Origin: an uncultured Planctomycetota bacterium
Lineage (GTDB): Bacteria; Planctomycetota; Planctomycetia; Isosphaerales; Isosphaeraceae
DNA: 64,000 nt
NCBI GenBank assembly: GCA_963777705.1
Contig: CAVZRT010000002.1
Coordinates: forward strand, 270,575-334,574
Reading direction: 5' to 3'
Shown here: positions 4,417 through 58,136 of the stretch, piece by piece
Layout of the letters: the number at the start of each line of letters is the position of its first letter
Numbering within the stretch: position 1 is the first letter of the stretch
Translations under genes and position numbers: made by a program
Notes under the pieces: generated by a model
Told to the model about the DNA's origin: nothing
Databases searched by the model: none
The model's input: the letters and a program-made list of their open reading frames with translations, nothing else

Positions 4417-5007
4417 TCATCGCAGATTGCGGGCAACTTTCAAGGCAACAAGCTCCGGTGGATCCAGGTCACGCCATCGCCCCGGTTGCAGATCTCCCAG
4501 CACGATCGGCCCGACGCCAACGCGGACCAGTCGGAGCGTGGGATGCCCGACGGCGGCCGTCATGCGGCGGACCTGGCGATTCCGCCCTTCTCGGATGACC
4601 AGCTTCAACCAGCAAGTCGGCACATTCTTGCGGAACCGGATCGGGACGGAGCGTTCGGGGAAGTCGGGGGCCGGGTCGACCCATTCCGCCTCGGCCGGGA
4701 GCGTCAAGCCGTCGTTCAACCTCACTCCTCGGCGAAGCGACTCCAGGGCCTCCGCCCCGGGTATGCGTTCCACCTGGACGAGGTAGGTTTTGGGATGCTC
4801 GAACCGGGGGTCGGCCAGGCGATGCGCCAGTTGCCCGTCGTCGGTCAGCAGCAAGAGCCCTTCGCTATCTCGATCCAGCCGGCCGACCGGATAGACGCCC
4901 GGGACCTTCACGAAGTCCTTGAGCGTGGGCCGGCCGGATTCATCGGTGAACTGCGTGAGGACGTCGTAGGGCTTGTGAAACGCCAGATATCGCCGCGGTG
5001 TCGGCAT
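4417..5007 (-). CDS. rRNA pseudouridine synthase, RsuA/RluE family
   Basis: 196-aa ORF. N-terminal [14 protein letters not shown] and the catalytic [17 protein letters not shown] motif characteristic of RsuA/RluB/RluE pseudouridine synthases. Confidence 0.8.
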
Positions 5008-7569: not shown

Positions 7570-9285
7570 TTACGCGACGCTTTCGGCCCTGGGGCTGGCC
7601 GATCGGGCCTGGGGTTCCCTCGTCTCAAGCTCCCAGGTCCCGTCGTCGTGGAGGTCCAGGATCATGTCGTGAAATTCGCGCAATTCCTGGTGGTCCTCGA
7701 TGCTGATGTAGGTGATCGAGGTTTCCGCCAGCACCTGATAGATCTGCTTCGACCCCTCGGCGCCGATGGCATTGGTCGCGCCATGGAGGAAGGCGAAGGG
7801 CGGGTCGGCGACGAGCAGGCCGGCGATGGCCACTCGCTCCTGATCCCCGAGCGGGAGCATGTTCGACCAGTCGCGCTCGGTGTCCAGGCCGTCCACGTCG
7901 GCCATGACCTTGGAGAGCTGGACCTTGTCGATGGCGGCGAGGATCTCGCGGTCGGTGGCGTCGCAATGGCGGCAGGCCACGACGATGGCCTCGCGGAGCG
8001 TCCCGGCCGGCGAGAAGGGCTGCTGGGTGAGGAAATGGAGGTCGTCGCGGTTCGGCCTCGCGATCTTCCCGCTCCCGTCGGGCCACAGGCCGGCCGTCGC
8101 CTTGAAGATCGCATCCTTGCCCGCCCCATTGGTCCCGCGAATCAGCAGGCGACGGCCGCGCGGCACTTCCAGGGTGAGGTCGTTGATGAGGACGTGGCCG
8201 TCGGCGGCCTTGAGCGTGAGCGATTCGAACGCGATTCGAGAATCGTCCTCGACCAGCGTGATCGACGTCTTCAACCCGTCCGAATTCCCTTCGATCGCCT
8301 CCCAGAACGAGCCGAGGCGGGCGATCACGGCGGCGAACGCCGAGAGCGAGTCGATCTGCGTGACGATCAAGGTCAAGGCGCCCGTGACCGCCGCGAACGC
8401 CCCGGCCGCCTGCGTGACCACGCCCCATTCGACCTTTCCCATGAGGAACAGGGGGGAAACGATAAGGATGGGGACGATTGGCGTCATGTAATTGTAGAAA
8501 GAAACAAAGAATCCGATGTTCCGATCCACGCTCACGATGGCCTTGAAATTCCTCGCCAGCTCGCGAAGTCGATTGCTCAACCTCGCCTCTTCGCGGGACT
8601 CCAGGCCCGCCAGGGCCACGGTATATGCCCGCTCCCGCACGGTGATCAGCTCGTAGCGGAAGTCCGCCTCCTTGCGGAACTGGTCGTTGTTCAGCTTCAC
8701 CAGCCGACGGCCCAGGATCAGCGTGATCACGCACCCGAGCGCCGAATATCCCAGCGCCGACAGCGCGAGCCAGGGCGAGATGGACCAGAGCACGCCTGCG
8801 AACGTGAGGAATGCCAGCGTCGAATTCAGGACCATGAGCGCCACCGACAGCAAGGTGGTGGTGAACGTCTTGACGTCCTCGGCGATGCGCTGGTCCGGGT
8901 TGTCGATCTCGCTCTGCGATTTCAGGCGATAATACGTCTGGTTGGCCAGATAGTTCTTGAAGAGGTACGCGGTCAGCCACCGCCGCCAGAGCAGGCCGAG
9001 GCACTGCTCGGTGAAGCGATAGAACACCCCGACCACGGTGGACGCCGCGAACACGCCCAGGTACAGAAAGGCATTGAGGATAAAGGTATGACGAGCCCGA
9101 TGCTCGAGCGCCGTCATGAAGTCGCGGCCCACGTAGCTATTCACCACGTTCAGCCCGCTAACGCCCAGCGCCAGCGAGAGCAAGAGGCCGAGATAGCCCC
9201 AAGCCTTCCACCGCATGTCGGACTGGAAAATCGGCCGGCTGATCGTGAGGGCACGAGACCAGGTACTTTGAGATTTCGCGGGCAT
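7570..9285 (-). CDS. ABC transporter permease/ATP-binding fusion protein (ABCD/SbmA-like half-transporter) with a degenerate nucleotide-binding site
   Basis: 571-aa intact ORF. N-terminal 6-TM domain. Walker A GTNGAGKD, signature LPLGDQER (instead of LSGGE/QQR), Walker B FAFLHGATNAI (D-E replaced by H-G), H-loop position EDH. Confidence 0.8.
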   Translation of the reverse strand: MPAKSQSTWSRALTISRPIFQSDMRWKAWGYLGLLLSLALGVSGLNVVNSYVGRDFMTALEHRARHTFILNAFLYLGVFAASTVVGVFYRFTEQCLGLLWRRWLTAYLFKNYLANQTYYRLKSQSEIDNPDQRIAEDVKTFTTTLLSVALMVLNSTLAFLTFAGVLWSISPWLALSALGYSALGCVITLILGRRLVKLNNDQFRKEADFRYELITVRERAYTVALAGLESREEARLSNRLRELARNFKAIVSVDRNIGFFVSFYNYMTPIVPILIVSPLFLMGKVEWGVVTQAAGAFAAVTGALTLIVTQIDSLSAFAAVIARLGSFWEAIEGNSDGLKTSITLVEDDSRIAFESLTLKAADGHVLINDLTLEVPRGRRLLIRGTNGAGKDAIFKATAGLWPDGSGKIARPNRDDLHFLTQQPFSPAGTLREAIVVACRHCDATDREILAAIDKVQLSKVMADVDGLDTERDWSNMLPLGDQERVAIAGLLVADPPFAFLHGATNAIGAEGSKQIYQVLAETSITYISIEDHQELREFHDMILDLHDDGTWELETREPQARSASPRAESVA

Positions 9286-9995
9286 AGGGCCTCAAGACGC
9301 GAATTTCCGACGGAAGGAAAGGACGAACCTAGGCGAAAAGGCGACTTAAGCCAGGTGAGAAATCCGGTGGCGACTGCACAATCGGCGTCAAAATACTTCG
9401 CCAGGATCGCAGTTCCCTGTGGCCTTCCCGGTTTTTCCTGCCAGGCTAACCAGGTGTGAATCAGGGCTTTCTGGCCATAACCCGGGGGAAACCTGCGATC
9501 GATAACAACGACTTCCGCGACCGTCTGCTTCGCCTTGTCGATGAGCCGATCTCCCGGTCGGATCATCTGCTCGACAAAATCTTCCAGCATCCCGACAGAC
9601 GAATTGTCGGGCCAGATCCAGATCCCGATCCTCGGTAGATCGGCGTCGTCGATGATCGTCCCGTCGGAATCGGGGATCGCCGGGGTGGAGGCATAGCCTG
9701 CATTACGCAGGATGTCAGCAATGCTATGCCACCGGGCTGGTGGATCCTCGTCGGCATCGACGACGACTCCGAGCCGATCGTAATCTTGCACCTTCAGGAG
9801 CGTGGGGAGGCTCTTCAGGAGGGCTTCTATGCCATGAATCGCCTTACCCTCAGGGTCATATTCTTCAACGCGGAATATGGGCTCTCGAAGATTCTTGGCG
9901 TTCATCCTACAGGCAACATCACGAATTGTCGCAAGCTGGCAAATTACCGCGAGGTCGTCTTTACCCTCGACATAGAGCTTGAACTTCTCGGCCAT
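9150..9995 (-). CDS. TOPRIM-like / DUF4435-like protein (AriB-/OLD-C-terminal-like), partner of the upstream ATPase
   Basis: ATG overlaps the ATPase stop (ATGA). N-terminal LYVEGKDD (TOPRIM Glu) and VVVDADED (DxD) motifs. The gene lies in a low-GC island. The ORF as drawn runs into the GC-rich start of the ABC transporter gene, so the true stop is probably near 9300-9400. Confidence 0.5.
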   Translation of the reverse strand: MAEKFKLYVEGKDDLAVICQLATIRDVACRMNAKNLREPIFRVEEYDPEGKAIHGIEALLKSLPTLLKVQDYDRLGVVVDADEDPPARWHSIADILRNAGYASTPAIPDSDGTIIDDADLPRIGIWIWPDNSSVGMLEDFVEQMIRPGDRLIDKAKQTVAEVVVIDRRFPPGYGQKALIHTWLAWQEKPGRPQGTAILAKYFDADCAVATGFLTWLKSPFRLGSSFPSVGNSRLEALCPRNLKVPGLVPSRSAGRFSSPTCGGRLGAISASCSRWRWALAG

Positions 9996-11065
9996 CAGCG
10001 AAGCTCCATGTTCCCTTCCAAGGCAATCTCCATCTCGTTTTCATCAAATTCGGCAACCAGCAGGCGATCTCCCTTGCGGGCGAGGCGGATCAAGACGCCC
10101 TCTTCCTCGGCATTCTCTCGGGCAGCCTCTTCGAAGGCTTTGATGCAGTCCGAACTGTGAGTAGTGGCGAAGACTTGGACATTAAGTCGGGTTGCCATCT
10201 GAAAGACGGCCTTCCAAAGCTCCGGTTGGACCGAATAATGAATGCCATTTTCGAATTCATCAATGAGCAGAATCCCATCCTCACAATTCACCATCGCCAA
10301 GGCGATGCCGAACGCGCGATTCACGCCGTCGCCCAACGTCTTGAGTGGGGTCGGTGGATCAGGGCCGATCATCTTGACGAAAGGCACTCGATCCGATGAT
10401 TTCCCGATAAATTTAAAAGTAAGCTTTTCGATGAGCGGTGACACAATCTTCACCCCTCGAAGCACATCCTGTTCCAGTGAGGTTAGCGAGATTTCATCCC
10501 ACAATCGCAGCACCGCATCCGTTTGGATGCCGGATGGCGAGACGAACTCGGCCCGAATTTTACGAGACGTCCATTCCGCCACTTCCGACGCGCGAGCCAG
10601 GCGCCCCAACACGCTCCTGGCGGTCGAATCGATGTCGAATGGCTTCCTCAGGTCGCCGACGTGGAAATTCAGTAAGATGGGACCGTCCGGGTCGTCATCC
10701 ATCGGTTCCAATCGAATACGAAAAACCTTTTCATCATCTTCCACAGGTCCGATACGGATTTGTTTCGATTCGTCGATTGAGATCTCCCTCCCGCTGAAAA
10801 TGCTCTCGAATTTGTATAGACTCTTGTCACGAGTGTCACGACGACTTCTGTTCGTCTCTATCTCGTCGCGCGATTCGAGGATTTCGAGCAGGGCCGAATC
10901 GTCACCCAACGCCGCGTAGAGTCGCAACGCTTCCAATAGGCTCGTCTTCCCGACGCTATTCTTCCCAACGATCAGATTCGCCCGGCCCAAACGCTTGATC
11001 TTCAGCTCCCGCAGGCCGCGGAAGTTGTGGATTTCGAGCGAGGGTAGGGCGAGTTCCTTGGCCAT
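9995..11065 (-). CDS. AAA15/ABC-type (OLD-/AriA-like) ATPase
   Basis: Walker A GKNSVGKTSLLEAL, Walker B ILLIDEFENGIH, and TTHS motif (VQVFATTHSSD). SD GAAGGGA lies upstream of the ATG at 11065 (alternative TTG at 11092). GC is about 50% against a flank of about 68%. Confidence 0.7.
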   Translation of the reverse strand: MAKELALPSLEIHNFRGLRELKIKRLGRANLIVGKNSVGKTSLLEALRLYAALGDDSALLEILESRDEIETNRSRRDTRDKSLYKFESIFSGREISIDESKQIRIGPVEDDEKVFRIRLEPMDDDPDGPILLNFHVGDLRKPFDIDSTARSVLGRLARASEVAEWTSRKIRAEFVSPSGIQTDAVLRLWDEISLTSLEQDVLRGVKIVSPLIEKLTFKFIGKSSDRVPFVKMIGPDPPTPLKTLGDGVNRAFGIALAMVNCEDGILLIDEFENGIHYSVQPELWKAVFQMATRLNVQVFATTHSSDCIKAFEEAARENAEEEGVLIRLARKGDRLLVAEFDENEMEIALEGNMELR

Positions 11066-11119
11066 GCGATTTCCCTTCATCCTCCACATCAATCATATCG
11101 CGGGCCGTCTGGAAAAGAA

Positions 11120-13935: not shown

Positions 13936-14195
13936 CGCGGCCCATCCCCTCGCGAGCGAATTCGGAGATAAGATGAGTCTATAAATCCCCGCTCCGGCAG
14001 GCAACGAAGAAATTCGGAGCTTGTTTCTCGCGATAGGAGGGTTCGTCCTTCGCGATATTCCGGAGAGGCGGGATGAGTCGCGCTTCGCGGCAATGCTTTC
14101 GCGGATGCCCTGCATCGTTGAGGGGACACGAGGGGCTTTTGCGCATCCCCAGATTGACGAAATGCTGCTGGTTCGCGGCGAGACACCAGGCGAAA

Positions 14196-14984
14196 ATGAA
14201 ACTCGTGAAACGACTTATCGCTCGCATCGCCATCCTGAGCCTGTTCGCCGCGGTGCCGGCCGGATGCGGCCCGTCGTCGGGCGGGAAGACGGCCGTCGAG
14301 CCGCTTCGTATCGCCGCCGCCAGCGACCTGCGCATCGTCCTGCCTCGATTGGTCGAGCGGTTCAAGGCGACCCGCCAGATGGAGGTGGAATGCACATTCG
14401 GCGCCTCGGGACAGCTCGCCCAGCAGGTTCGCCAGGGCGCTCCGTTCGACGTGTTTCTTGCCGCCAATCGCCGCTTCGTGGCCGACCTTGCCAGGGATGG
14501 CCTCGTGCGCAAGGATTCGGTCCGCGATTATGCCAGGGGCACGCTCGTCCTGGCGATCCACAGGGACTCGGCCGATTCGATCCGCTCCCTTGCCGACCTC
14601 ACGAAGCCAGGCATCAAGCACGTGGCGATCGCCAATCCCGAGCTTGCCCCGTATGGGATGGCCGGGAAGCAGGCGATCGAACGTGCCGGCCTCTGGGAGG
14701 AAATTGCCCCGAAGATCGCGCAATCGGAGACGGTCGCGCAGGCGCTTCAATTCGTGCAGACGGGCAACGCCGAGGCGGGCTTCGTCGGGCGATCCGGCGT
14801 GGCCGAGGCGGGAGTTTACGTGCTCGCGGTCGATCCGCTCCTGTATGATCCGATCATCCAGGCGATGGGGATCCCGAGCGACTCGAAACGCATCGACGAT
14901 GCCGCGGCGTTCGCGGCGTTCGTCCTCTCGAAGGAGGGCCAGGCGATCCTTCGCGAAAGTGGATTTGAGGCACCTCCCCGATGA
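14196..14984 (+). CDS. modA: Molybdate ABC transporter substrate-binding protein ModA
   Basis: Signal peptide/lipobox-like start MKLVKRLIARIAILSLFAAVPAGC. ModA-family similarity throughout (AASDLR...FGASGQLAQQV..GAPFDVFLAAN...GTLVLAI). Confidence 0.85.
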   Translation: MKLVKRLIARIAILSLFAAVPAGCGPSSGGKTAVEPLRIAAASDLRIVLPRLVERFKATRQMEVECTFGASGQLAQQVRQGAPFDVFLAANRRFVADLARDGLVRKDSVRDYARGTLVLAIHRDSADSIRSLADLTKPGIKHVAIANPELAPYGMAGKQAIERAGLWEEIAPKIAQSETVAQALQFVQTGNAEAGFVGRSGVAEAGVYVLAVDPLLYDPIIQAMGIPSDSKRIDDAAAFAAFVLSKEGQAILRESGFEAPPR

Positions 14985-14996
14985 TTCGAAGCGGAG

Positions 14997-16100
14997 GTGA
15001 GATTCATGACCAGGCAAGCAAGGCCATTCCGGGTGGGCACGCTCATGCTGCTGGTCGCGGCGGTTGCGGTCCTGCTGGCGTCGCTCGACTGGTGGGTCAG
15101 AATGGAGCAGGCCCTGAGCCCGTCGAGGATCATCGAGGTCGAGGTTCGGAACGCCTTGCCGGGCCGGCCGATCTCGGGCGAGCGGCTCGTGCGTCCCGAC
15201 GGGACCATCTCCCTGGGCTTCTACGGCGATGTTTACGTGGCGGGGCTGACGCCCACTGAGGTCAGGGAGAAAATTGCGAAACAACTGCTCAAACACTTGA
15301 CCGAGGAGGAACTCGGACTGGTCAGGATTCGGAAAGGACCGGAGGATTTCGGATGGCGGCTGACACAAGTCCCGCTCGCACAATCGGAGTGGTTCAAGGT
15401 TCGCGTCGTGAGGCCCAACGTGCTGACTCCCTTCGAGCGACTGTGGCCCTTCTCGCTGTCCGTTCGCGTCGCCTCGCTTGCAACTTTGCTCATCGTCTTA
15501 ATCGGCTTGCCGATTGCCTACCTGCTGGCCCGGACGCGATTCTTCGGCAAGGATTTCCTCTCCGGGTTGATGCTCTTGCCGCTGGTCTTGCCGCCGACCG
15601 TGGTGGGATTCGCGCTGCTCCAGATTTTCGGACGCAGGGCGCCGCTGGGGATGTGGCTGGAATCGTGGTTCGGGATCGTGCTGGTGTTCCACTGGACGGG
15701 TGCCGTGCTCGCGTCGTCGGTGGCGGCTTTTCCGCTGTTCTTGATCCCGGCCCGCGCGGCGTTCGAGGCGGTCGATCCGGGGCTGGAGGACGTGGCCCGA
15801 TTGCTCGGCCGGGGCGAATTCTCGGTGTTCTCGCGGGTCACCTTGCCGCTGGCCTGGCGAGGGTTGATCTCGGGCACGGTCCTCGCGTTCGCCCGCGCCC
15901 TGGGGGATTTCGGGACGACCTTGATGGTCGCGGGCAACCTGCCGGGCCGCACGCAGACGGCTTCGCTGGCGATTTACGACGCCGTCCTGGCCGATCACAC
16001 CGAGATGGCCTGGCTCTTTTCCGCGCTCATCGCCGCGACGTCCATTGCCGCCCTGGCCCTCGTCCAGAAGGTCCAGCCGGCTCGCGGGGCCGGGCGATGA
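14997..16100 (+). CDS. modB: Molybdate ABC transporter permease ModB with an unusual 140-aa N-terminal extension carrying a Poly_export/SLBB-like motif
   Basis: The C-terminal 230 aa align with ModB (LPLVLPPTVVGFALLQIFGRR..., EAA-like loop ALGDFGTTLMVAGN). The N-terminal part has a TM helix plus RPDGTISLGFYGDVYVAGLTPTEVREKIAKQL, a polysaccharide-export-type motif, in the same frame with no intervening stop. Confidence 0.75.
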   Translation: MRFMTRQARPFRVGTLMLLVAAVAVLLASLDWWVRMEQALSPSRIIEVEVRNALPGRPISGERLVRPDGTISLGFYGDVYVAGLTPTEVREKIAKQLLKHLTEEELGLVRIRKGPEDFGWRLTQVPLAQSEWFKVRVVRPNVLTPFERLWPFSLSVRVASLATLLIVLIGLPIAYLLARTRFFGKDFLSGLMLLPLVLPPTVVGFALLQIFGRRAPLGMWLESWFGIVLVFHWTGAVLASSVAAFPLFLIPARAAFEAVDPGLEDVARLLGRGEFSVFSRVTLPLAWRGLISGTVLAFARALGDFGTTLMVAGNLPGRTQTASLAIYDAVLADHTEMAWLFSALIAATSIAALALVQKVQPARGAGR

Positions 16101-17201
16101 GTTCCCGCTTGCAGGCGTCCGTGGCCCGGCAAATTCATCCTGCCTTGCGGCTGGACGTTGCTATGGAACTCAATTGCGAATGCGGCGTGGTTTTCGGGCC
16201 GTCCGGCGCCGGGAAGACCAGCCTTTTGCGACTGATCGCCGGACTCGACCGGCCCGATTCCGGCCGGGTTCGCGTCGACGGTGCCACGTGGTTCGACGCC
16301 GAGCAAAACGTCCATCTCCCGCTCCGATCCCGCCGCGTCGGGATGATTTTCCAGGACGATCGATTGTTCCCGCATCTGGACGTGAGGGCCAACGTCCGGT
16401 TCGGGCTGAAGGGGCGAAGTCGCGACGAGATCGCGCAGTCGATCGGCCGAGGTTGCCTCCATCTGCGGGATCGAAGGCCTGCTGGATCGCCGGCCCGACA
16501 CGCTCTCGGGAGGCGAGAGGCAAAGGGTCGGCCTGGCGAGGGCGCTGGCGCCGGGGCCGCGATTGTTGCTCGCCGATGAGCCGGTCTCGGCGCTGGACCT
16601 TGACTCGCGATTCGCGCTGATCGAGCGCCTGCGGCAGGTCCCGAACATCGAGGGCATCCCCGTGCTGATGGTCACGCATGCCCCCTCCGAAGCGATCGCG
16701 CTGGGCGGCCCTGTGTTCGTGATGGAGCGGGGGAAGATCATCGATCAGGGCCCGCCCGTCGACGTGCTGGCTCGTCGCCGCGCCGGCTCGTCGAAGCTGG
16801 ACGACATCCAGAACGTGCTTCGCGGGAAGGTCGTCGGGCATTCGCACGCCGCGGGCGAGACTTGCATCGAGCTTGACGGCGGCCCTCGCCTGATCGTGCC
16901 CCATGGGGACATCTCAATCGACTCGCGCGCCAACATCCAGATCCGAGGTGATGAGATTGTGCTGGCCCGGGGCGAGATCGCCGGCCTGAGTGCCCGCAAC
17001 CTGATCGGCGGGGTCGTCGATCGCATCCTGCCCCACGATGGCGGCGCCGAGGTCATCGTCCGGACCGGCGAGGTCGAGTGGATCGTGAGCGTGGTGGCGT
17101 CGGCGATCGAGTCGCTGCAACTGGGGCCGGGGTCTCGCGTGTCGATGATCATCAAGGCGAGGAGCTGTCGGGTGCAGGAAATGCACCGGTTTTCATGCTA
17201 G
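16097..17201 (+). CDS. modC: Molybdate ABC transporter ATP-binding protein ModC (one frameshift near 16448)
   Basis: ATG overlaps the modB stop (ATGA). Walker A GPSGAGKTSLLR, signature LSGGERQRVGLARAL, Walker B LLLADEPVSALD, and a C-terminal TOBE/MOP-like domain. The N-terminal and C-terminal halves lie in different frames. Confidence 0.8.
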
Positions 17202-18415
17202 AAAACGCCCGAGCAACGCCGCCATCTCGGTGGCGTTGGGGATCTCCTTGAACCGCAGGACCGGCCCCTTCAACTCGCCGAGGGCTTCTTCATCCACCTT
17301 GAATTTCTCGGAGATCGCCAGCAAGTAGCGGGGCGGGCCGTGCTGGGGCAAGAGGCGCATCGAGTCGTTCCAGGCTCGATTTCTTCCAGAATCCGAGCAC
17401 TTCCACGAGGACGTCGGTGCCGGTTTTCTTGTGGGCGAACCTGTAATCGGGGACCCACACGCCCTCGCGACCTAGCTCGACGATCTCGGTCGACTCGGTC
17501 ACCTCCCACGCCGGGCACGACCTGCCGGAAGCGTTCGACGAACGCGTTCAGTTCGGGCGGCACGTACGTCCCTGCATCCTGGTAGTGCGAGATCAGGCCG
17601 TCGGACGATTCGAGGTGGAAGGTGCGAGGTTCGCGCTTCGGGCCCCACCGCAGCTCGGCGTCGAGCCGGAAGTCGTCGCACAGGAGCAACGCGGGCAGGA
17701 ACATGGCCATCTGGAGGCCGTATTTCGTGGTCGAGGAAAACAGGCTGAGCGGGCCGTCGATGTGGAACGTGTAGCCCTGGGCCATCGACCCGTCCACGCG
17801 ATGCAAAAGGCGGTGGAACTTGAGCCATCGGAACAGTTGGCGATAGCGTTGCGGCTTCTCGCGACGCACCTCCGCCGTCACCAGGACCGACCGCAGCAGG
17901 ACCGCTTGCGCCAGCGCCACGTTGTAGCGATCGACGAGCCGTTGCGCGCTCAGGTCGTCGAACGTGAGCATCCGGGCCTCGTCCTTGAGGTCGGCGAACA
18001 GGCTAGACTCCACCTTGATCGGGTCGATGCCCATCTCGTCGGCCACCTGCTGCAACACGACCTCGGCGCGGAAGTGCTCCCTGCGCCCGGCGGCCTTCAG
18101 CTCCTTCCTGTGGGCAGCGGCGGCGGCGAAGACCTTCTCTCGCAGGACGTCGGGCGGGACGTCGGCGACCATCTCGAACTCGCACCGATCCTCCAGGACC
18201 TTGGCGAGGCCGCGATGCGCCAACGTCTTGGGGTCGTCTCCCAGGAGTTCGTCGATCTCGGCCTCGATCTCGCCGCGGGTCGTGCCCACGCCCTCGCGAT
18301 AGATGAGCAGGAGGCTCTCGGCGGCCTCCAGCCACGAGGGGTCGTCTCGCTTCAGATAGAGCGGGATCACGCGGGCCTTCGAGGTGCGGACGCGGACGAG
18401 GTTGCCGGTGAGCAT
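17194..18415 (-). CDS. Bax1-like DUF790 nuclease (XPB-partner nuclease), with 2 apparent frameshifts
   Basis: Starts 6 nt after the XPB stop. The C-terminal region has a PD-(D/E)xK-like motif (VWVPDYRF...VLVEVLGFW). Its 3' end overlaps convergently with the end of modC. Confidence 0.6.
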
Positions 18416-18421
18416 GCGTCG

Positions 18422-19809
18422 TCAATCCCCCCCGTAGGCGCCGTGCTGCCTGCGGCGATTCGAGGTGAATTCCTCGGCGGTGCCGCGCGTGACGACCTCG
18501 TAGAGCGTGGCCTCTTTATCGCCGGATTTCCGCAGGATTCGCCCCAATCTCTGCACGTGCTCGCGGACGCTCCCCGATCCCGACAGGATCACGGCCACGT
18601 TCGCCTCGGGCACGTTCACGCCCTCGTTCAAGACGCGCGAGGTGGCCACGATCGGGTATTCTCCCGAGTTGAATTTCATCAGGATATCGCGGCGTTCCTT
18701 GGTCTTCGTCTGGTGGGTGATGACCGGCACCAGGAACTGGCGAGCGATCTTGTAGACGGTGGCATTGTCGTGCGTGAAGATGAGGACGCGGTCGCCGTTG
18801 TGCCGGTCGAGCAGCCGCGAGAGCAATTCGAGCTTCGCGGGGGCCGCGAGCGACAGGTCCCTCTGCTCGCGATAGCTCAGGTAAGCCTGTCGGCCTTCGG
18901 GCGAGCGATGCGCCTGGAAGAGGAACTGGCCCCACGCGCCCGGGCGCCTCAGGTCGATCCCGCTTTCCGAGAGGAATCCGCGATAGGTCTCGCGGCAGAA
19001 TTCGTATCGCAGGCGTTCGGCGTCGGTCAGGTTCACGTAGAGCATCTCGACGCGATAATCGGCAAGGAACTCGCCCCGCAACTGCGTGATCTCGCGGCGA
19101 TAGACGATCGGGCCGATCAGGCGATCGGTCTGGAAATGGGCGTTGTCGGCCCGTTCGGGAGTTGCCGTCAAACCCAATCGGAACGGGGCGAGCGAGCAGG
19201 ACGCCGCCAGGCCATAGGTCGGGCCGGGAAGGTGGTGGCATTCGTCGAAGATGAGCAACCCGAACTGGTTGCCGATCCGGTCCATGTTCATGTAGGCGGA
19301 ATCGTAGGTGGTGACGGTCAACGGCTTGATGTCATAGGAGCCGCCGCCCAAGAGGCCGACCTCGGTGGCGAAGGTCACGCTCAGCTCGTCGTACCACTGG
19401 TTGAGCAGGTCGATGGTGGGCGTGACGACCAGCGCGGGCGCCCGGCCTTCTGGATGCACAAATTGGCGAGGTGCGTCTTGCCGGTGCCGGTGGGCAGGAC
19501 GACCACGCCGCGCTTGCCGCATCGGTCCCAGGCCGCGAGCCCCTCGGTTTGATGAGGGAACGCGGGCTTGTCGATGCGGATCGTCCAGTTCGCGACCTGA
19601 TAGGCACGGGCGTCGTCGGCGTAGTCGATCTTCTGCTGTCGCAGGTATTCGATGATCCCCCGATACTCGATCGCCTCGGCGCGGAATGACCCCGATCGCA
19701 GGTCCCGCTTCAATCCGGGGATGCCGCGCGAATCGTCCTCGGGCAGCCCTTCCACGAGGATCGTGCCCGAGTCGAACGAGAGCCGCAATTTTGGGAGATC
19801 GGAGGTCAT
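18422..19809 (-). CDS. XPB/ERCC3-type superfamily-2 DNA helicase (frameshift near 19430)
   Basis: N-terminal damage-recognition-like domain (MTSDLPKLRLSFDSGTILVEG). Motif I VVVLPTGTGKT, motif II LLIFDECHH, and a C-terminal helicase domain with RED-like region (TATPER, QRLGRILR). The N-terminal piece is in a different frame from the long ORF. Confidence 0.75.
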
Positions 19810-20407
19810 GCCGGATCGGCCCCGGGCCTCTGGATGCGACGCATGAGCCATCCGAAGATCTCGGCGGAAGGGATGACGAGGCCGGGCAGGATTGGACCGA
19901 AGTCGATCGCGCCGTCGGGCGTTGGCGTCTCGACCTCGCGCCGGGCCGGTAAATCTCGATAAGCTTGCGATAGGGATGGACGAGGATACCCAGAGTGCAA
20001 CCGTGCGACGTCGAGTGGATCAGTTTCTCACGAGATCGTTTGACGCGGCGGTCGGGGGAGATGATTTCGACGTGGATGTCGGGAGGGATGGGGGTATCCT
20101 CGACTAGTCGACCATCGGGGTTGTAGGCGAGGTGATCCGACCTCAGGAAGCAGACGTCGGGGAGGATCGATCGCCCCGCGAATGTGCACCGAAGTTCCAG
20201 GAACGCCATGCCCAGGCCCGATCGCTCGGCGAACCCATCGATGGAATTATAGAGCTTCCCCTGGATGACGCTATGGTGCTTCTGGGGTGCCACTTTCGCC
20301 TTGATCCTCCCGTCGATGTATTCCCAACCCGGGCTCTCCTCGATGCCCGGCATGCGGAGGAACTCCTCCAGCGTGACGACCTTGCGGACTCGCGGCGATG
20401 TGGACAT
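19806..20407 (-). CDS. Uma2-family (DUF820) PD-(D/E)xK endonuclease (frameshifted near its C-terminus)
   Basis: MSTSPRVRKVVTLEEFLRMP...WEYIDGRI...PDVCFL...PDIHVEIISPDRR...KLIEIYRP, then the C-terminal ILPGLVIPSAEIFGWL in another frame. The stop overlaps the XPB start (ATGA). Confidence 0.6.
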
Positions 20408-20436
20408 GCTCGGCTCCCGTTCTCGACGATTCCCGA

Positions 20437-20979
20437 TTACTCCGTTGTACCCGAAATCGCCTCGAACGGAAATCGCGCGACCCGCTCCCACGGCCCGCCG
20501 CGATATCGCCACAAGAGCAACGCATCTCCCCATCCCGACCACGGCTCCCACCCGGCGCTCGCCCCCGCAAACGCCAGCGAGGCCTCGATTGGCTCGGCCT
20601 TGTTCATGAGGGTTACATGCGGGCGGAACGGCTGGCGATCTTGCGGCGTGAGCCAGGGGGCGAACTCGCGGCTCAACCGGGCGTGGATCGTGGCCAAGCC
20701 CGGCGCCTCGACCGTCGCTCCGAATCCTCGGCCGGTCTTCTTCAGCGAGGGAAAATGCAAGGCAAGCGGGCCGCGGGTCGAGGCCGATTCGCTCAGCGAT
20801 TGCTCGATCGCTTCCCGCTCCTCCCACGGCAGGTGGTGGAAGAGCGAGAGGTGCGCCGGGACGATGTTCCGCTCGGGCGGGAAGTGGCGCGAGCGGAGCG
20901 CGTCCAGTCGCGAGAACGTCGACGGATCGAAGCCCAGGGTCACGAGCAGGGGATCGGTCGCGTCGACGCCCCGATTCAT
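20437..20979 (-). CDS. 2H phosphoesterase superfamily protein (LigT/2'-5' RNA ligase-like)
   Basis: 180-aa ORF with two H-x-T/S-x motifs (AHLSLF; PHVTLM) spaced as in LigT/2H enzymes. It starts 5 nt after the stop of the GH2 gene. Confidence 0.65.
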   Translation of the reverse strand: MNRGVDATDPLLVTLGFDPSTFSRLDALRSRHFPPERNIVPAHLSLFHHLPWEEREAIEQSLSESASTRGPLALHFPSLKKTGRGFGATVEAPGLATIHARLSREFAPWLTPQDRQPFRPHVTLMNKAEPIEASLAFAGASAGWEPWSGWGDALLLWRYRGGPWERVARFPFEAISGTTE

Positions 20980-20983
20980 TGGT

Positions 20984-23900
20984 TTATTCCCGCTTCACGA
21001 GCGTCAAGCCCAGGTCGATCCCCTGCCCGCCGCCGGTCTGACGGCATCGCACGGCGATCGTGTTCTTGCCGGCCTGGAAGAGGGACCTGGCGGCCTGGTC
21101 GAGCTTGATGTCTCGGTAAGCGGTGCTGAAGCCCTTCTCGGCGAACAGGGGCTTGCCATTGACGAAGATGTCCACGTCTTCGTCGTGGAACATGTGCAGG
21201 AAAATCACGTCGTCGGGCGAGACTGCCGGCATGTCAACGCTCGTCCGCAGCCAGATCGTCTTCGTGTCCCATCGCGTGTGGTCCTGCAACGCGGGCGTAT
21301 TGGCCGTCCCAAACCCCGACTTGCCGCGCTTCCATGCCGAGTCGTCGAAGCCGGACTCGGACCAGTTCGGGGCCGGCTCGTCGGTGGTGTAGGCCCACGT
21401 CGAGGGCTCGCCCAGCCGCGAATCGCCCGCCTTGAGGACGGCCACGCGGCGCGAGGCGAGCGAGTCGATGGCCGTCGAGGTCTCCGGATTCACGCCCAGG
21501 TCGGCGGGCAGGTGATCCTCGGTCTCCACGATCAAGGTGGGCTCGACCAGCGAGCCACCGGCCTTCCCTCCGTAGACCGACAGGCCATTGGCGGCGGGTG
21601 CGTCGGTGGGGACGGCCAGGCGAAGCTCGATCGGCTTGCCCGCCTGGATGTCGGTTACGACCGAGGCCGGCAGGTCGGCCTTCTGGCGGATCATCTGGCC
21701 GTAGCCGCCGTGTTCGACCCTCCTCAGGTGCGAGAGCACGCCCCTCGCGTCGGCCGGGTCGTCGTCCAGCTTGATGGTGAAGAGTTTCTGGGCGTTCAAC
21801 GCCACTTCCAGCGTCGAGGGTGCCTTCTTCGCGTCGGTCTGGGGATTGTCCTGGGCGTTCGTGTGATCGTTCCAATCGACCTGGTTGAGGCCGTTCTTGG
21901 AACCCGCTTCCATGAGCAAAGTGACCGATTTCGGCTTCGCCTTGGCCACCGATTCGGGCAGCTTGAGGCGGTATTCGAAGGCCCCTGAACCGCGGCCCCA
22001 GACCTTGCCGGTCAGCTCCTCATCGCCGCCCGACCATTTGACCTTGGCGTACTCGCCGGGGGCGAATCGGATGGCGACCGCGTGATCGTCGAGCCTCTCC
22101 ACGCGGGGCGACGGCTTCTCGGGCGTGACGACCAGGTTCACGAAATTCGCCGCGATCTTCTTGCCCGACGAGTCTTCCAGGACGAGCGCGAGGGCACCGA
22201 CGAACGGCTCCTTGATGCGGATCCCCAGCGGCTTCTGCTCCTTCACGCCGTAGGGGGTCCACTCGACGGGGCGGATCTGCTCGGGCAGGTCCGAAGTTTC
22301 GCCCTTCTCGTTCTTGCCGGTCACCCACCATTTCAGCCGGGGTACGTCCTTCAAATCGGAATAGTGCGACACGAACAGGGGGATGCGGATCACCTCGCCC
22401 ACCTTGGCCTCGATGGCGGGCGCGGTGTCGAAGCCGATGAAATCCGGGCCTTGCAGGTCGGCCGGCGTCATCCCGGGCACGAAGGCGTCGTAGCCGAATT
22501 CCTTCTTCGATCGGTCGTAGTCGTAGAACCCGTTATGTTCCCACTCGATGTCGGAAAGCTCGGTGTAGATATAGCCCTGGATCTTGGGATGACGGCGCAA
22601 CTGCGTGGTCATGTCCCGGAAGCCCCACGAGACGTCGCGGTCGCCGCCGCCGGCCGACACGCTCCCGTATTCCGAGTTGATCAAGGGGGCGGAATTCATC
22701 TTCTCGCCCGGCACATAATTGAAACTGCTGCCCGGCTTCGATTGCGCGACCACCGACTCGATGTGGCGGCGGGTCTCGTTATGGTCGTCGATATAGAAAT
22801 GCCAGCTATTGAGGTCCGAGCCGTCCACATGGTCGTTGTTGCACGGTGAGTTGTCTTCGACGAGGCGGGTCGGGTCGAGCTGGCGGGTCAGGGCAACCAT
22901 CGACTTGACCCAGCTCTGCGTGTCCTTGTCGGTCTTGTAAACGCCCGCGTCGTAGCCCGATGCCAGGCCCCAGGTCTCGTTGAAGTCGACCCAGGCGAAG
23001 ATGCTCGGATGGTTCTTGTCGCGGGCGATCGTCTCGCGCAGGGTCGATTCCCACGCCTTGCGTGCCCTCGCGTTCTGCGCCCAGGTGTTGGGCATGTCTT
23101 CCATGATGAGCATGCCCAGTTTGTCGGCCCAGTAGAGGCGGCGGGGCTCGTCGGGCTTGATGTGGATGCGGAGGAAGTTCGTGCCGACGGCCCTGGCAAG
23201 CTCGATGTCGTGCTTCAAGAATTCGTCGCTCGGGGCCGTGTAAATCCCCTTCGGGTTGAACGACTGGTCGAGGGCGCCTCGCAGGAAGATCGGCTTGCCG
23301 TTGAGGAAAATCCGCTCGAAATCGTCGCCGGGCAGCTTGCCTCGGGAGATCGTGCGGAGGCCGAAGTAGGTCTTGATGGAGTCGAGGACTTTGCCGTCAG
23401 GCCCCTTCAATTCCAGGGTGATGTCGTAGAGGTGCGGCGAGTCGGGGCTCCAGGGCTTGGGGTCGCGGACGGGGACCTTGATCGTGGTCGGGCCTTGGCT
23501 GATGCGGTCGCCCGACTCGGGTCGAATGTGTATACGGCCGGCTTCATCGCCTCTTCCACGGTTCCGATCGTGGGATCTTCCGATCGCACCACCAATCGCA
23601 ACGTCTCGACATCCTTCATCTGGACGGCGTGGAGCGTGATCTCCCCTTGAGCAGGATCGATAGCCGTCTTGATCGTAAATCCGGCGATATGCGACTTCGG
23701 CACCGCCTCCAGCCAGACCGTTTGCCAGATCCCGGACGTGGTCGTGTACCACCCCACCTGCTTGCCCGTGGGCAAGCTCGGGTCGGTCGGATCGAACGCC
23801 CGCACGACCGCCGTATTCTCGCCATCGGACTTCAAGGCGTCGGTGATATCGGCCGAGAATGGCGAATATCCGCCCTCGTGCGAGGCCACTTCCTTGCCGT

Positions 23901-24288
23901 TCACCCACACGTCGGCGCGGTAATCGACGGCCCCGAAATGGATCATCACGCGGTCGTCCTTCGGGAAATCCTTTGGCACCGAAAACGTGCGGCGATACCA
24001 GCCGATCTTGGGCGCGTCCTTCACCGCCTTGATGCCCGAAAGCTCGCTCTCCCAGGGGAAGGGGACGGTGATCGTGCGATCGAAACCGGGCTTGCCGGGC
24101 TCGGACCACTTGTCGGCGTTCCCCTTGTCGTCGGCGTCGAACCGGAATTCCCATTTGCCGTTGAGGTTCGCCCAGTGCTCCCTCATGCGATCGGGCGTGG
24201 GATGCTCGGGCCGGGGGATCTCCTGGGCTTGCGAAGGCCCGATCAGGCCAACGATCATCAATGCGGCGCAAAGGGCGATCCGGTTCAT
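20984..24288 (-). CDS. Glycoside hydrolase family 2 protein (beta-galactosidase/beta-mannosidase-like), one frameshift near 23520
   Basis: Signal peptide MNRIALCAALMIVGLIGPSQA. GH2 sugar-binding N-domain. TIM-barrel with NHPSIFAWVDFNETWG (acid/base) and NSEYG (nucleophile) contexts. Long C-terminal beta-sandwich domains. Confidence 0.8.
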
Positions 24289-24430
24289 GGTGGCAAACTC
24301 TCGGCGGGTTCGATTCGCAAACTGAGGCGCACGACTCGACGAGCCTACCAGATCCGCCCGCCGTCCGCGAGGAACCGCGGACCCGATCCCTGAGGCGATC
24401 CAAACTTACCCGCAAGTCGTGAGATGATTT

Positions 24431-54846: not shown

Positions 54847-55278
54847 CAGCCAACCCCTCCTTGATGCGAATGACCGAAGTGGAATCCTGAGTATAGGGAT
54901 CGACATGGCCATGTCCATACCCGCGGCGCCTGGACATTTCTCAAGGAAGGCGGGCGGCGAAAAACTCGACTTCCGAGGCCGGACCGGAAGTTTCGCAGAC
55001 CAGCCCATGAAACCATCCATGTCGACCGACCGTCCAATTCCGACGCAGCGCGGATGCGCCGAAACGTGCCCGGACGTGTTTCCACGCGCCCCAGGACTGC
55101 GCAATTTCGCGCCGCCTTTTCCGAAGCCCATCGCCCATTCCCCATCGATAAGTCGTTGCAGAGTCATGGTTTGCGTTCCATTCTTTCGATCTATCTCGAC
55201 GATCGCGCGATCCGGGATTTGGCTTCGTTTCGCAGAATCACACTGCAACACGGTGGCTTTGTTTGGGAGAATTCTCAT

Positions 55279-55378
55279 GTCCGGTTAAGTCCTGGTAGGG
55301 CCGGTTATTACCGGCCGTCCTTCGCGCAGATCAACGCAGCCGGTTAATACCGCCCCTACCAGGACCCAACCGTCCGGC
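55279..55378. repeat. About 100-bp imperfect inverted-repeat element
   Basis: Arms CCTGGTAGGGCCGGTTATTACCGGC / GCCGGTTAATACCGCCCCTACCAGG, flanked by GTCCGGTTAAG...ACCGTCCGGC. Confidence 0.3.
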
Positions 55379-55546
55379 GCAGTCCCGGACGAGGGAAGTA
55401 TCGGGATCGACCAGTCCCGGCGATCGCACGATCGGAGGACATCTCCGAACCATCCGAGGATTGTCGCTACGAAAAACTAAATGTGTCCGGACCAGTGAAC
55501 TGGAAGCTCCGAGAGCGTTGTAACCCTACCCGCGAGTCGGGAGCGA

Positions 55547-55607
55547 TTGTTGTGGGGTAGGCGTCCCGCCTGCCGAATTCCAGGCAGGCGGGACGCCTAC
55601 CCTACAA
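55547..55607. repeat. Palindromic repeat element, copy 2 (variant of the 24431..24488 element)
   Basis: TTGTGGGGTAGGCGTCCCGCCTGCC-GAATTCC-AGGCAGGCGGGACGCCTACCCTACAA. It shares the GCGTCCCGCCTGCCGAATTNCAGGCAGGCGGGACGC core. Confidence 0.6.
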
Positions 55608-56078
55608 GGACGCCCGGCTTACCCAAGGGTAAAGGTAGAAGCCCTCACTGAAAAATTTTTCGCCTCCATCAAGGAATTTTCTTGCTATCCATCCATGACT
55701 GCATGAAAATCGAGGATGCCGGAAAGATCTTCTGGCTGGTAGACTTCGTGAGCACGAAAACTTGCGGCTGTTTTTCGTAAACCAAACGAGAGTCGGGAAT
55801 TACCACCATTAACGCGATTTGTGCGAACTAACGGCACCTGGTTTGCGTCTAACCTAGATAGCGTGAATGCAAGACTGGATTCTGAGGCCTTGTGAACGTT
55901 TCTTGGCGAGAAAACGGCGACGATCGCGAATCCTTGGTGAATGGCCGCGTCTAAGAGAGACGACAATTCTGGATTTTGCTCGTCCGCCACCGGGTTTTTG
56001 GATCGTAGAGTAGACAACAGGGGCGGCTCGACGGCGTCCGTGATCGGGCGGAACTCTCGTGAGGGGGAGAATTTCAGG

Positions 56079-58080: not shown

Positions 58081-58136
58081 CTGCTGCGCCCGTGGCCGTG
58101 ACGCCGGGCGGCCGGGCGCGGCCTCTCGAGGCGCGC

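What the first reader, a model, noticed from the sequence alone, without database searches (positions are those of the whole stretch)
17194..20979. Tightly coupled four-gene operon: 2H phosphoesterase (LigT-like) - Uma2 endonuclease - XPB helicase - Bax1-like nuclease
All four genes are on the minus strand with 0-30 nt spacing or ATGA overlaps. The Uma2 stop overlaps the XPB start, and XPB and Bax1 are 6 nt apart. The first gene starts 5 nt after the GH2 stop. XPB-Bax1 helicase-nuclease pairs are classically archaeal/eukaryotic-type nucleotide excision repair machinery and are uncommon in bacteria. The addition of a Uma2-family PD-(D/E)xK nuclease and a 2H phosphoesterase (RNA-end healing/ligation chemistry) makes an unusual nucleic-acid processing cassette. 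It could be a repair module or an uncharacterised defence/RNA-repair system.
Basis: partly seen in the sequence, partly recalled or inferred. Interest (0 to 1): 0.55.

Follow-up and report, generated by a model that had tools for sequence, protein, structure and literature searches.

The report
Bacterial XPB-Bax1 operon with extra nuclease
This is a bacterial copy of the archaeal-type XPB helicase and Bax1 nuclease pair, preceded by an uncharacterised Uma2 nuclease that many related planctomycetes keep fused to the helicase's start codon, and by a 2H phosphoesterase that only a few relatives carry there.

Summary
Four minus-strand genes lie at 20979-17193: 2H phosphoesterase, Uma2, XPB and DUF790/Bax1. 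The gaps are 29 nt, an ATGA overlap, and 6 nt. All four family assignments pass Pfam thresholds. Four single-base indels interrupt Uma2, XPB and Bax1, but GH2 and modC carry them too, so they are probably assembly errors.

The cassette is not a conserved four-gene unit. The universal core is XPB-Bax1, which also occurs in other bacterial lineages, Deinococcus plasmids and archaea without the other two genes.

In 80 species-level loci, mostly Isosphaeraceae, one Uma2 orthogroup sits directly upstream of XPB in 23 of 52 evaluable loci. Its stop codon overlaps the XPB start in 27 of the 35 Uma2-XPB junctions scored (34 of them readable). It is under purifying selection (dN/dS 0.16-0.3) but evolves faster than XPB and has been lost repeatedly. 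The 2H gene occupies the same slot in only one of those loci, plus four other contigs, once without Uma2.

The most likely reading is a DNA-structure-processing helicase-nuclease module with a lineage-specific accessory nuclease. Defence and RNA-repair readings are not supported. Interest is moderate: the linkage gives the uncharacterised Uma2 family a testable partner.

The parts
20437..20979 (-). 2H phosphoesterase (PF13563; YjcG/CPDase-like), 180 aa, intact. It is a sporadic occupant of the slot upstream of XPB.
   Evidence: Pfam 2.5e-22. H43-x-S and H121-x-T are invariant in 53 homologues. The AF2 model has pLDDT 92.7. Foldseek best match is B. subtilis YjcG 2d4g, TM 0.76/0.81, followed by plant CPDase and LigT. 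No PDB hit by sequence. TIGR02258 LigT scores 19 bits against a 65.7-bit cut-off.
19806..20407 (-). Uma2-family PD-(D/E)xK nuclease, about 200 aa, with a 1-nt deletion near 19938. Its stop codon overlaps the XPB start (ATGA).
   Evidence: Pfam Uma2 1.1e-25 over 1-169 of 172 after frame repair. PDB 3ot2 at 1e-28, an uncharacterised protein. E29 is invariant and D84 and E114 are conserved in at least 85% of 20 orthologues. The orthogroup lies directly upstream of XPB in 23 of 52 species loci and in 7 of 7 evaluable metagenome contigs.
18422..19809 (-). Archaeal-type XPB/Rad25 SF2 helicase, about 462 aa, with a 1-nt deletion near 19436.
   Evidence: Pfam XPB_DRD, ResIII, Helicase_C and ERCC3_RAD25_C. 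Match of 2e-108 to A. fulgidus XPB 2fwr/6p66 over residues 10-460. Motifs GTGKT, DECH, TAT and QRLGRxLR are invariant in 20 orthologues, and the RED motif reads R-A-D.
17193..18415 (-). DUF790/Bax1-like nuclease, about 406 aa, with two 1-nt insertions near 17516 and 17361.
   Evidence: Pfam DUF790 1.4e-103, full length. NCBIfam endonuclease Bax1 models at 2e-35. PDB Bax1 6p4f, 6p4o and 6p66 at 1e-19 to 1e-22, and 8gy8 at 1e-24. D323 is invariant, E338 is E or D in 57 of 58 sequences, and the N-terminal D142 is invariant.
20984..24288 (-). Context: secreted GH2 glycosidase, frameshifted near 23540. It ends 4 nt before the 2H start and may be co-transcribed.
   Evidence: Pfam Glyco_hydro_2_N, Glyco_hydro_2 and Glyco_hydro_2_C. 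The same GH2-2H-Uma2-XPB-DUF790-modCBA synteny is seen in L004, where the GH2-2H gap is 164 nt.
16097..17201 (+). Context: modC (ABC ATPase with TOBE domain), convergent with Bax1 and frameshifted.
   Evidence: Pfam TOBE. tblastn shows a frame change. A hairpin at 17171-17187 is followed by a T-run on the + strand.

Best explanation
The locus encodes a bacterial XPB-Bax1 helicase-nuclease module. Two optional genes have been added upstream of XPB.

Proposed mechanism, inferred from the archaeal homologues:
- XPB is an SF2 translocase with a damage-recognition domain. It opens or tracks distorted DNA such as bubbles and forks.
- Bax1 docks on XPB through its N-terminal domain.
- Bax1 then cuts at the single-strand/double-strand junction with its C-terminal PD-(D/E)xK-type site.

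Uma2:
- In one sublineage of Isosphaeraceae, a single Uma2-family nuclease orthogroup was recruited immediately upstream of XPB.
- Its stop codon overlaps the XPB start codon, so the two are made from one message and probably in linked amounts.
- I propose it is a dispensable accessory nuclease of the module. It might make a second incision or process a flap, much as XPF complements XPG/Bax1. I do not regard it as an obligatory subunit.

2H:
- The 2H phosphoesterase is a further, sporadic passenger of the same upstream slot.
- It most likely has its own cyclic-phosphodiesterase role.

Shown here: gene anatomy, family membership, intact catalytic motifs, conservation pattern, translational coupling and purifying selection.
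Inferred: every biochemical activity, any physical Uma2-XPB contact, and the physiological substrate.
For: Core pair:
- XPB matches AfXPB over its full length at 2e-108, and its helicase motifs are invariant.
- Bax1 matches DUF790 over its full length at 1e-103 and has D323, E338 and D142. These correspond to the nuclease and XPB-interface acidic residues described in PMC7293015.
- XPB-DUF790 pairs without Uma2 or 2H occur in distant bacteria (L097-L100) and on Deinococcus plasmids.

Uma2 linkage:
- 23 of 52 evaluable GTDB species loci carry it.
- All 7 evaluable metagenome contigs with 52-56% identical Uma2 have XPB directly downstream, and 4 carry tandem Uma2 copies.
- The junction is an ATGA overlap in 20 loci and a TGATG overlap in 7, out of 35 junctions scored.
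- In L069 the gene order is Bax1-Uma2-XPB, so Uma2-XPB moved together.
- dN/dS is 0.16-0.30 in the closest pairs, and catalytic residues are conserved.
- Extra Uma2 paralogues lie between XPB and Bax1 in L005, L014 and L080.
- None of the roughly 75 complete flanking genes in the Pfam-annotated Isosphaeraceae tables is Uma2. One end-cut ORF at L004:3-344, which Pfam did not scan, does hit my Uma2 model.
Against: Uma2 looks dispensable:
- On the XPB+Bax1 tree, Uma2-positive loci are interspersed with Uma2-negative sisters. Examples are L017 against L020-23, L037/38 against L028/47, and L086 against L012/87.
- It evolves much faster than its neighbours. Mean pairwise identity is 53%, against 77% for XPB and 72% for Bax1.
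- Its distances track XPB only moderately (r=0.67, against 0.92 for XPB-Bax1).
- Its dS is often about twice that of XPB, which allows for replacement by paralogues.

The locus tolerates passengers:
- The XPB-Bax1 interval holds unrelated genes in other species: ParE, SMI1_KNR4, MgtC, CHAD, DUF4058 and a sulfate permease.

Other gaps:
- No fusion of DUF790 with Uma2 was found. Ten longer-than-usual DUF790 proteins were scanned, and the precomputed Pfam domains of the listed DUF790 hits show only PF05626. XPB-Uma2 fusions were not specifically searched.
- No experiment exists on any Uma2 protein or any bacterial Bax1.
- About 11 species have Bax1 with no XPB within 5-8 kb.
Confidence: 0.55

Rival explanations
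1. Uma2 and 2H are passenger or selfish genes. They landed in a permissive intergenic slot of a housekeeping XPB-Bax1 locus and persist by hitch-hiking on its transcription, with no functional tie to the helicase-nuclease pair.
For: - Slot content varies between close relatives: none, Uma2, 2H, 2H+Uma2 or Uma2+Uma2.
- Uma2 has been lost repeatedly.
- Uma2 diverges fast and shows elevated dS.
- The neighbouring XPB-Bax1 gap collects toxin-antitoxin and immunity-type genes (ParE, SMI1_KNR4) as well as unrelated metabolic genes.
- PMC3424549 notes mobile-element contexts and multiple transfers for Uma2.
- 2H homologues at about 58% identity in Corallococcus sit in an unrelated context.
Against: - One orthogroup keeps the same position in more than 25 species, with a conserved start/stop overlap.
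- 7 of 7 more distant relatives are also XPB-linked.
- Uma2-XPB stay together through a rearrangement (L069).
- Purifying selection acts on Uma2 and its catalytic residues are conserved.
- There are no transposase or repeat signatures at the junctions.
Confidence: 0.28
2. The cassette is an anti-phage or anti-plasmid defence system. XPB-Bax1 attacks invading DNA, and the fast-evolving Uma2 acts as an effector or specificity nuclease.
For: - Uma2 weakly matches the PADLOC candidate PDC-S03 (1e-7), and XPB resembles the PbeA and Dnd-restriction helicases.
- Uma2 evolves rapidly and is duplicated in some contigs.
- Toxin and immunity genes lie in the adjacent slot in relatives.
- DUF790-helicase pairs occur on Deinococcus and haloarchaeal plasmids.
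- An AbiL-like candidate defence pair lies about 6 kb away, at 9150-11092.
- PMC1189080 did not exclude a 'selfish character' for DUF790.
Against: - XPB and Bax1 are highly conserved, syntenic and vertically inherited next to a pseudouridine synthase across a whole family. Patchy defence genes do not usually behave this way.
- The window neighbours are GH2 and modABC.
- PADLOC finds nothing for Bax1 or 2H, and there is no system-level match.
- No homologue was found in 50,697 phage records.
- GC content is unremarkable across the cassette.
Confidence: 0.12
3. The cassette is an RNA-end healing or RNA-repair module, with 2H chemistry acting alongside the nucleases and the helicase.
For: - The 2H fold and both HxT/S motifs are intact.
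- 2H overlaps the next gene by 4 nt in L004 and L086.
- A pseudouridine synthase is the usual upstream neighbour.
Against: - 2H is present in only 1 of 52 species loci and is dispensable.
- There is no RNA ligase, kinase or RtcB/Pnkp-type partner.
- XPB and Bax1 are DNA enzymes in every characterised case (PMC7293015, PMC7672443).
- The 2H protein is closest to YjcG/CPDase rather than LigT, and the TIGR02258 cut-off is not met.
Confidence: 0.04

Closest known systems
Archaeal XPB-Bax1 helicase-nuclease complex (A. fulgidus and S. tokodaii; PDB 6p66, 6p4f, 6p4o; PMC7293015, PMC7672443)
   Same: - Adjacent helicase and nuclease genes.
- XPB aligns end to end with AfXPB (2e-108), covering the DRD, both helicase lobes and the region that holds the thumb insert.
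- Bax1 aligns over about 350 residues, with the PD...E...(R/K) nuclease motif and the N-terminal acidic residue conserved.
   Different: - The host is a bacterium (Planctomycetota, Isosphaeraceae).
- The RED motif reads R-A-D.
- The NCBIfam archaeal equivalog cut-offs are not reached (183 of 610 bits for XPB, 122 of 500 for Bax1).
- An Uma2 nuclease is translationally coupled upstream, with or without a 2H gene.
- In many relatives XPB and Bax1 are separated by 0.4-4 kb of unrelated genes.
Bacterial XPB, e.g. Mycobacterium tuberculosis XPB (PMC3353954), and the COG1061-COG3372 (SF2 helicase-DUF790) neighbourhood (PMC1189080, PMC3424549)
   Same: An XPB-type helicase in a bacterium, with the DUF790/helicase gene pairing already noted from comparative genomics.
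   Different: - The M. tuberculosis paper states that no XPB-Bax1 complex had been identified in bacteria.
- None of these papers mentions Uma2 or 2H as neighbours.
Uma2/DUF820/TT1808 family (PF05685; PDB 1wdj, 3ot2, 6okh, 9y1l)
   Same: Full-length family match, about 40-45% identity to 3ot2 in the printed alignment (estimated by eye, not computed), and a PD-(D/E)xK core with the lysine displaced from motif III.
   Different: All solved members are uncharacterised stand-alone proteins. Here one orthogroup has a fixed genomic partner, XPB, and a start/stop overlap with it.
2H phosphoesterases of the YjcG / plant CPDase / LigT groups (PDB 2d4g, 1jh6, 5ldi)
   Same: The same fold (TM up to 0.81) and two HxT/S motifs.
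   Different: - Sequence identity is only 15-20%.
- It is not a LigT equivalog.
- There is no sequence-level PDB hit.
- Its position in an XPB operon is sporadic.

Membership tests
XPB/Rad25 helicase (archaeal type) | N-terminal damage-recognition domain (DRD) | tested here: met
   PF18458 XPB_DRD at 5.3e-17, residues 10-67, covering 1-57 of 57 profile positions.
XPB/Rad25 helicase (archaeal type) | SF2 helicase motifs I, II, III and VI | tested here: met
   GTGKT, DECH, TAT and QRLGRxLR are present and invariant in 20 orthologues.
XPB/Rad25 helicase (archaeal type) | RED motif after motif III | tested here: not met
   The sequence reads R220-A221-D222, aligned to AfXPB R-E-D. It is invariant as R-A-D in this clade.
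XPB/Rad25 helicase (archaeal type) | Curated equivalog score (NF045503, 610 bits) | tested here: not met
   183.5 bits. It is a homologue but falls below the archaeal equivalog cut-off.
XPB/Rad25 helicase (archaeal type) | Thumb-like (ThM) insert in helicase lobe 2 | tested here: inconclusive
   The full-length alignment to AfXPB covers the region. No structure was modelled.
Bax1 / DUF790 nuclease | Full-length DUF790 architecture | tested here: met
   PF05626 at 1.4e-103, covering 1-384 of 387 after frame repair.
Bax1 / DUF790 nuclease | C-terminal PD-(D/E)xK-type acidic residues | tested here: met
   D323 is invariant, E338 is E or D in 57 of 58 sequences, and G-x-W-(R/K)(R/K) follows. The region aligns to the StBax1 motif PDf...vEivGFW.
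Bax1 / DUF790 nuclease | Gene adjacency with XPB | tested here: met
   A 6-nt gap in the window. XPB lies upstream in 59 of 80 species loci.
Bax1 / DUF790 nuclease | Heterodimer with XPB and junction cleavage | not testable with these tools
   This needs protein biochemistry.
Bax1 / DUF790 nuclease | Curated equivalog score (NF053694 and NF053695, 500 bits) | tested here: not met
   122.5 and 120.8 bits.
Uma2 (PF05685) PD-(D/E)xK nuclease | Family profile above the gathering score, full length | tested here: met
   90.5 bits against a 27-bit cut-off, covering 1-169 of 172. 3ot2 at 1e-28.
Uma2 (PF05685) PD-(D/E)xK nuclease | Catalytic acidic residues (E in helix 1, PD, E-x-x-S) | tested here: met
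   E29 is invariant, and D84 and E114 are conserved in at least 85% of 20 orthologues.
Uma2 (PF05685) PD-(D/E)xK nuclease | Nuclease activity | not testable with these tools
   No member has been characterised.
2H phosphoesterase superfamily | Two HxT/S motifs | tested here: met
   H43-L-S45 and H121-V-T123. Both histidines are invariant in 53 sequences.
2H phosphoesterase superfamily | 2H fold | tested here: met
   The AF2 model has pLDDT 92.7. Foldseek matches YjcG 2d4g at 3.6e-8, TM 0.76/0.81.
LigT (RNA 2',3'-cyclic phosphodiesterase, TIGR02258) | Curated equivalog score (65.7 bits) | tested here: not met
   19.4 bits.
Known anti-phage defence systems (PADLOC 2.0) | All components match the models of one system | tested here: not met
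   Bax1 and 2H give no hit. Uma2 hits PDC-S03 at only 1e-7. XPB gives partial helicase-core hits to PbeA.
   All four occur together in 1 of 52 evaluable species loci (L014), and also in L004, L005 and L087. Uma2 without 2H occurs in 22 loci. 2H without Uma2 occurs in L086. Neither is present in 29 loci.

The most novel reading that the evidence does not exclude
A subfamily of the large, functionally unassigned Uma2 family is a dedicated partner nuclease of bacterial XPB-Bax1. Together they would form a three-component helicase/dual-nuclease machine. It might be a UvrABC-independent excision or fork-processing pathway, or alternatively a DNA-targeting defence module in which the fast-evolving Uma2 supplies specificity. 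The 2H enzyme would be an optional fourth activity.
Probability: 0.2. Interest if true: 0.65.

Novelty: new variant of a known kind. Interest (0 to 1): 0.38.

Why it matters
No experiment on a bacterial Bax1 homologue turned up in the papers searched, and bacterial XPB appears there only through in-vitro work on the M. tuberculosis enzyme. Uma2 (PF05685) is a predicted nuclease family with several solved structures and no known function. A specific Uma2 orthogroup whose stop codon overlaps the XPB start in about 27 loci gives that family a concrete partner and a testable hypothesis.

Natural variants make ready-made comparisons:
- Tundrisphaera lichenicola has Uma2 only.
- Tundrisphaera sp. 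TA3 has 2H only.
- Singulisphaera sp. PoT has neither.
- Singulisphaera acidiphila has Uma2.

If Uma2 proves irrelevant, the locus still shows how accessory genes accumulate in and around a conserved helicase-nuclease pair.

Tried and rejected
1. My first iterative HMM for Uma2, built from whole extended ORFs, drifted (46 to 104 hits). It picked up out-of-frame ORFs inside XPB and the upstream pseudouridine synthase. I rebuilt it from envelope-trimmed hits.
2. The search for related loci with 58 diverse DUF790 sequences failed because no stretch was conserved enough. The 12-sequence alignment worked, but only the best 80 loci were returned and they are almost all Isosphaeraceae. Breadth outside that family therefore rests on five loci and three Deinococcus plasmids.
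3. The source contig could not be fetched. P0121 is a 100% identical 2H protein on a 372,580-bp NCBI/ENA contig, but it has no gene on record.
4. I considered testing whether Uma2 paralogues are enriched in the XPB-Bax1 gap against flanking DNA. I did not claim this, because my general Uma2 model was seeded from this locus and would under-detect other subfamilies.
5. I looked for Uma2-DUF790 fusions among long DUF790 proteins. None was found, only a DUF5615-DUF790 protein.
6. The long + strand ORFs antisense to the cassette (17585-19552 and 20132-21988) have no Pfam match and were treated as high-GC artefacts.
7. Rfam finds no RNA family at its gathering threshold in 14-27 kb. The promoter and terminator scans were at background level, with no site on the minus strand.
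8. I did not model a linker-fused Uma2-XPB complex. The tool returns no interface confidence and would refuse paired alignments built from locus sequences.

Full report
**Observation**

The ORF list, the raw sequence and a three-frame translation show four consecutive minus-strand genes:
- a 2H phosphoesterase at 20979..20437;
- an Uma2-family nuclease at 20407..19806;
- an XPB helicase at 19809..18422;
- a DUF790/Bax1 nuclease at 18415..17193.

The gaps are 4 nt from the GH2 stop to the 2H start, 29 nt from 2H to Uma2, an ATGA stop/start overlap between Uma2 and XPB, and 6 nt from XPB to Bax1. The convergent modC gene ends at 17201.

Pfam confirms every assignment on the raw ORFs. After the frames are joined, Uma2, XPB and DUF790 become full-length matches, with DUF790 at 1.4e-103.

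**Frameshifts**

Uma2 and XPB each carry one single-base indel, and Bax1 carries two. They lie near 19938, 19436, 17516 and 17361, in short G/C runs. tblastn with the proteins of a syntenic relative shows the same kind of frame change in GH2 and modC, giving six in about 10 kb. Many long-read MAGs in the survey show similarly split genes. I treat these as assembly errors and not as pseudogenisation.

**The individual proteins**

- *XPB.* It aligns end to end with Archaeoglobus fulgidus XPB at 2e-108. It has the DRD domain and invariant helicase motifs. The RED motif reads R-A-D throughout this clade.
- *Bax1.* It matches the solved archaeal Bax1 chains at 1e-19 to 1e-24. It keeps the invariant PD aspartate (D323), E338 and the N-terminal D142. 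These correspond to the two acidic sites described for AfBax1 (PMC7293015).
- *Uma2.* Its closest solved relative is the uncharacterised 3ot2, at 1e-28. It keeps the family's acidic residues.
- *2H.* It has no sequence-level PDB relative. It models confidently (pLDDT 92.7) and superposes best on B. subtilis YjcG, plant CPDase and LigT. Both HxT/S histidines are invariant. It does not reach the LigT equivalog cut-off.

**Conservation of the cassette**

DUF790 homologues at 73-85% identity are abundant in Isosphaeraceae. The gene tables of relatives show these arrangements:
- Uma2-XPB-DUF790 without 2H in L001, L002 and L003;
- the window's exact synteny, GH2-2H-Uma2-XPB-DUF790-modCBA, in L004;
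- PseudoU synthase-2H-Uma2-XPB-Uma2-Uma2-DUF790 in L005;
- PseudoU synthase-2H-XPB-SMI1_KNR4-DUF790, with no Uma2, in Tundrisphaera sp. TA3;
- PseudoU synthase-2H-Uma2-XPB-ORF-DUF790 in L087.

I then surveyed 80 GTDB species loci using HMMs built here. The results were:
- XPB lies upstream of Bax1 in 59 loci.
- Among the 52 loci with enough upstream sequence, the Uma2 orthogroup lies directly before XPB in 23. Eighteen of those have an RluE-like pseudouridine synthase further upstream.
- 2H is present in one locus.
- Neither Uma2 nor 2H is present in 29 loci.
- Eleven species have Bax1 with no XPB within 5-8 kb.

The XPB-Bax1 gap is at most 200 nt in 28 loci but exceeds 400 nt in 24. In those longer gaps it holds unrelated genes: ParE toxin, MgtC, SpoIIE, CHAD, DUF4058, a hydrolase, a sulfate permease and AP_endonuc_2. 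In L005, L014 and L080 it holds extra Uma2 paralogues.

Outside this family, XPB-DUF790 is a bare two-gene pair (L097-L100; Deinococcus plasmids). No homologue was found in the phage collection.

**How tight the Uma2-XPB link is**

- The junction is ATGA in 20 loci and TGATG in 7, out of 35 junctions scored. Where Uma2 is absent, the pseudouridine synthase-XPB gap is about 100-190 nt. Where 2H abuts XPB (L086), it also overlaps by ATGA.
- A metagenome scan with the Uma2 protein returned eight contigs at 52-56% identity. All seven evaluable ones have XPB immediately downstream, and four carry a tandem Uma2 duplicate.
- In L069 the order is Bax1-Uma2-XPB, so Uma2 and XPB stayed together through a rearrangement.
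- Uma2 is under purifying selection, with dN/dS 0.16-0.30 in the closest pairs, against 0.03-0.16 for XPB.
- Uma2 is far more divergent than its neighbours. Mean identity is 53%, against 77% for XPB and 72% for Bax1.
- Its distances follow XPB only moderately (r=0.67), whereas XPB and Bax1 follow each other closely (r=0.92).
- On an XPB+Bax1 tree, Uma2-positive and Uma2-negative loci interleave. This implies one early gain and several losses.

**Interpretation**

The conserved functional unit is XPB-Bax1. By homology it is a DNA translocase with a junction-cutting nuclease.

Uma2 is a lineage-specific, dispensable but selectively maintained accessory that is co-translated with XPB. I favour a role as a second nuclease of the module, with confidence of about 0.45 for that specific step. 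The main rival is that Uma2 and 2H are passengers in a permissive slot.

A defence role has only circumstantial support: a weak PADLOC candidate hit, fast evolution, toxin and immunity genes in the neighbouring slot, and plasmid-borne pairs in other phyla. It is contradicted by the vertical, syntenic, family-wide conservation of XPB-Bax1 and by the metabolic neighbours.

The RNA-repair idea rests on 2H alone. That gene is sporadic, and its close homologues in Corallococcus sit among arginine-biosynthesis genes.

**Literature**

The DUF790/SF2-helicase neighbourhood was reported in 2005 and 2012 (PMC1189080, PMC3424549). The archaeal complex is structurally characterised (PMC7293015, PMC7672443). 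The M. tuberculosis XPB paper states that no bacterial XPB-Bax1 complex had been identified (PMC3353954). No paper in the library links Uma2 with XPB or DUF790, and none assigns a function to Uma2.

**Verdict**

This is a new variant of a known kind, of moderate interest. The value lies in the Uma2-XPB coupling, not in a four-gene system.

Noticed in passing
window 9150-11092, minus strand: A low-GC island (GC 0.54-0.58) holds two overlapping genes: an AAA_15/AAA_21 ATPase (9995..11092) and a DUF3226 protein (9150..9995). They match the PADLOC candidate pair PDC-M38A (4e-95; AbiLi 2e-54) and PDC-M38B (1e-45). This looks like an AbiL-like candidate defence pair, probably acquired horizontally. 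It lies about 6 kb beyond the Bax1 end.
   Followed up: partly
window 62211-62283, plus strand: A tRNA-Ile with anticodon UAU. To my knowledge this anticodon is unusual in bacteria, which normally decode AUA with a lysidine-modified CAU tRNA. A typical Thr-Tyr-Gly-Thr tRNA cluster lies at 58008-58587, and a Trp tRNA at 60228.
   Followed up: no
window 4417-5007, minus strand: This is the orthologue of the RluE-like pseudouridine synthase that sits just upstream of XPB (or of 2H/Uma2) in about 29 related species. In this genome it lies 12 kb beyond Bax1, so the cassette has been rearranged relative to the ancestral PseudoU-[slot]-XPB-[slot]-Bax1 frame.
   Followed up: partly
window 14000-24300: There is about one frame change per 1.7 kb across unrelated genes (GH2, Uma2, XPB, Bax1 twice, modC). 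The four in the cassette are single-base indels in short G/C runs; the GH2 and modC changes were seen only as tblastn frame switches. This is typical of an unpolished long-read assembly. Any gene call in this window needs frame repair.
   Followed up: yes
L024:7625-7924 (also L018, L025, L039, L050); L086:7971-8420; L058:6955-7905; protein P0243: In relatives, the interval between XPB and Bax1 is a hotspot for small accessory genes. These include a ParE toxin, an SMI1_KNR4 immunity-type protein and DUF4058. One DUF790 protein carries an N-terminal DUF5615 domain, which as far as I recall is PIN-like.
   Followed up: partly
L013, L026, L029, L031, L032, L034, L053, L059, L064, L068, L085: Eleven Isosphaeraceae or Gemmataceae species, including Tautonia, have a well-conserved Bax1 gene with no XPB within 5-8 kb on either side. 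The nuclease is therefore not always genetically tied to the helicase. A JGI contig has GH2-DUF790-SMC_N with no XPB.
   Followed up: no
L018, L021, L024, L025, L038, L048, L050, L057, L073 (minus strand, upstream of the pseudouridine synthase): A second, distinct Uma2 paralogue is conserved on the opposite strand within about 0.1-2.5 kb upstream of the pseudouridine synthase in nine species, including one (L038) that lacks the XPB-coupled Uma2.
   Followed up: no
window 19146-19154 (XPB residues 220-222): The XPB RED motif, considered functionally important in archaeal and human XPB, is R-A-D here. It is invariant as R-A-D in all 20 orthologues examined.
   Followed up: partly
window 55001-56000: A second GC dip (0.55) appears in the composition profile. 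Its content was not examined.
   Followed up: no
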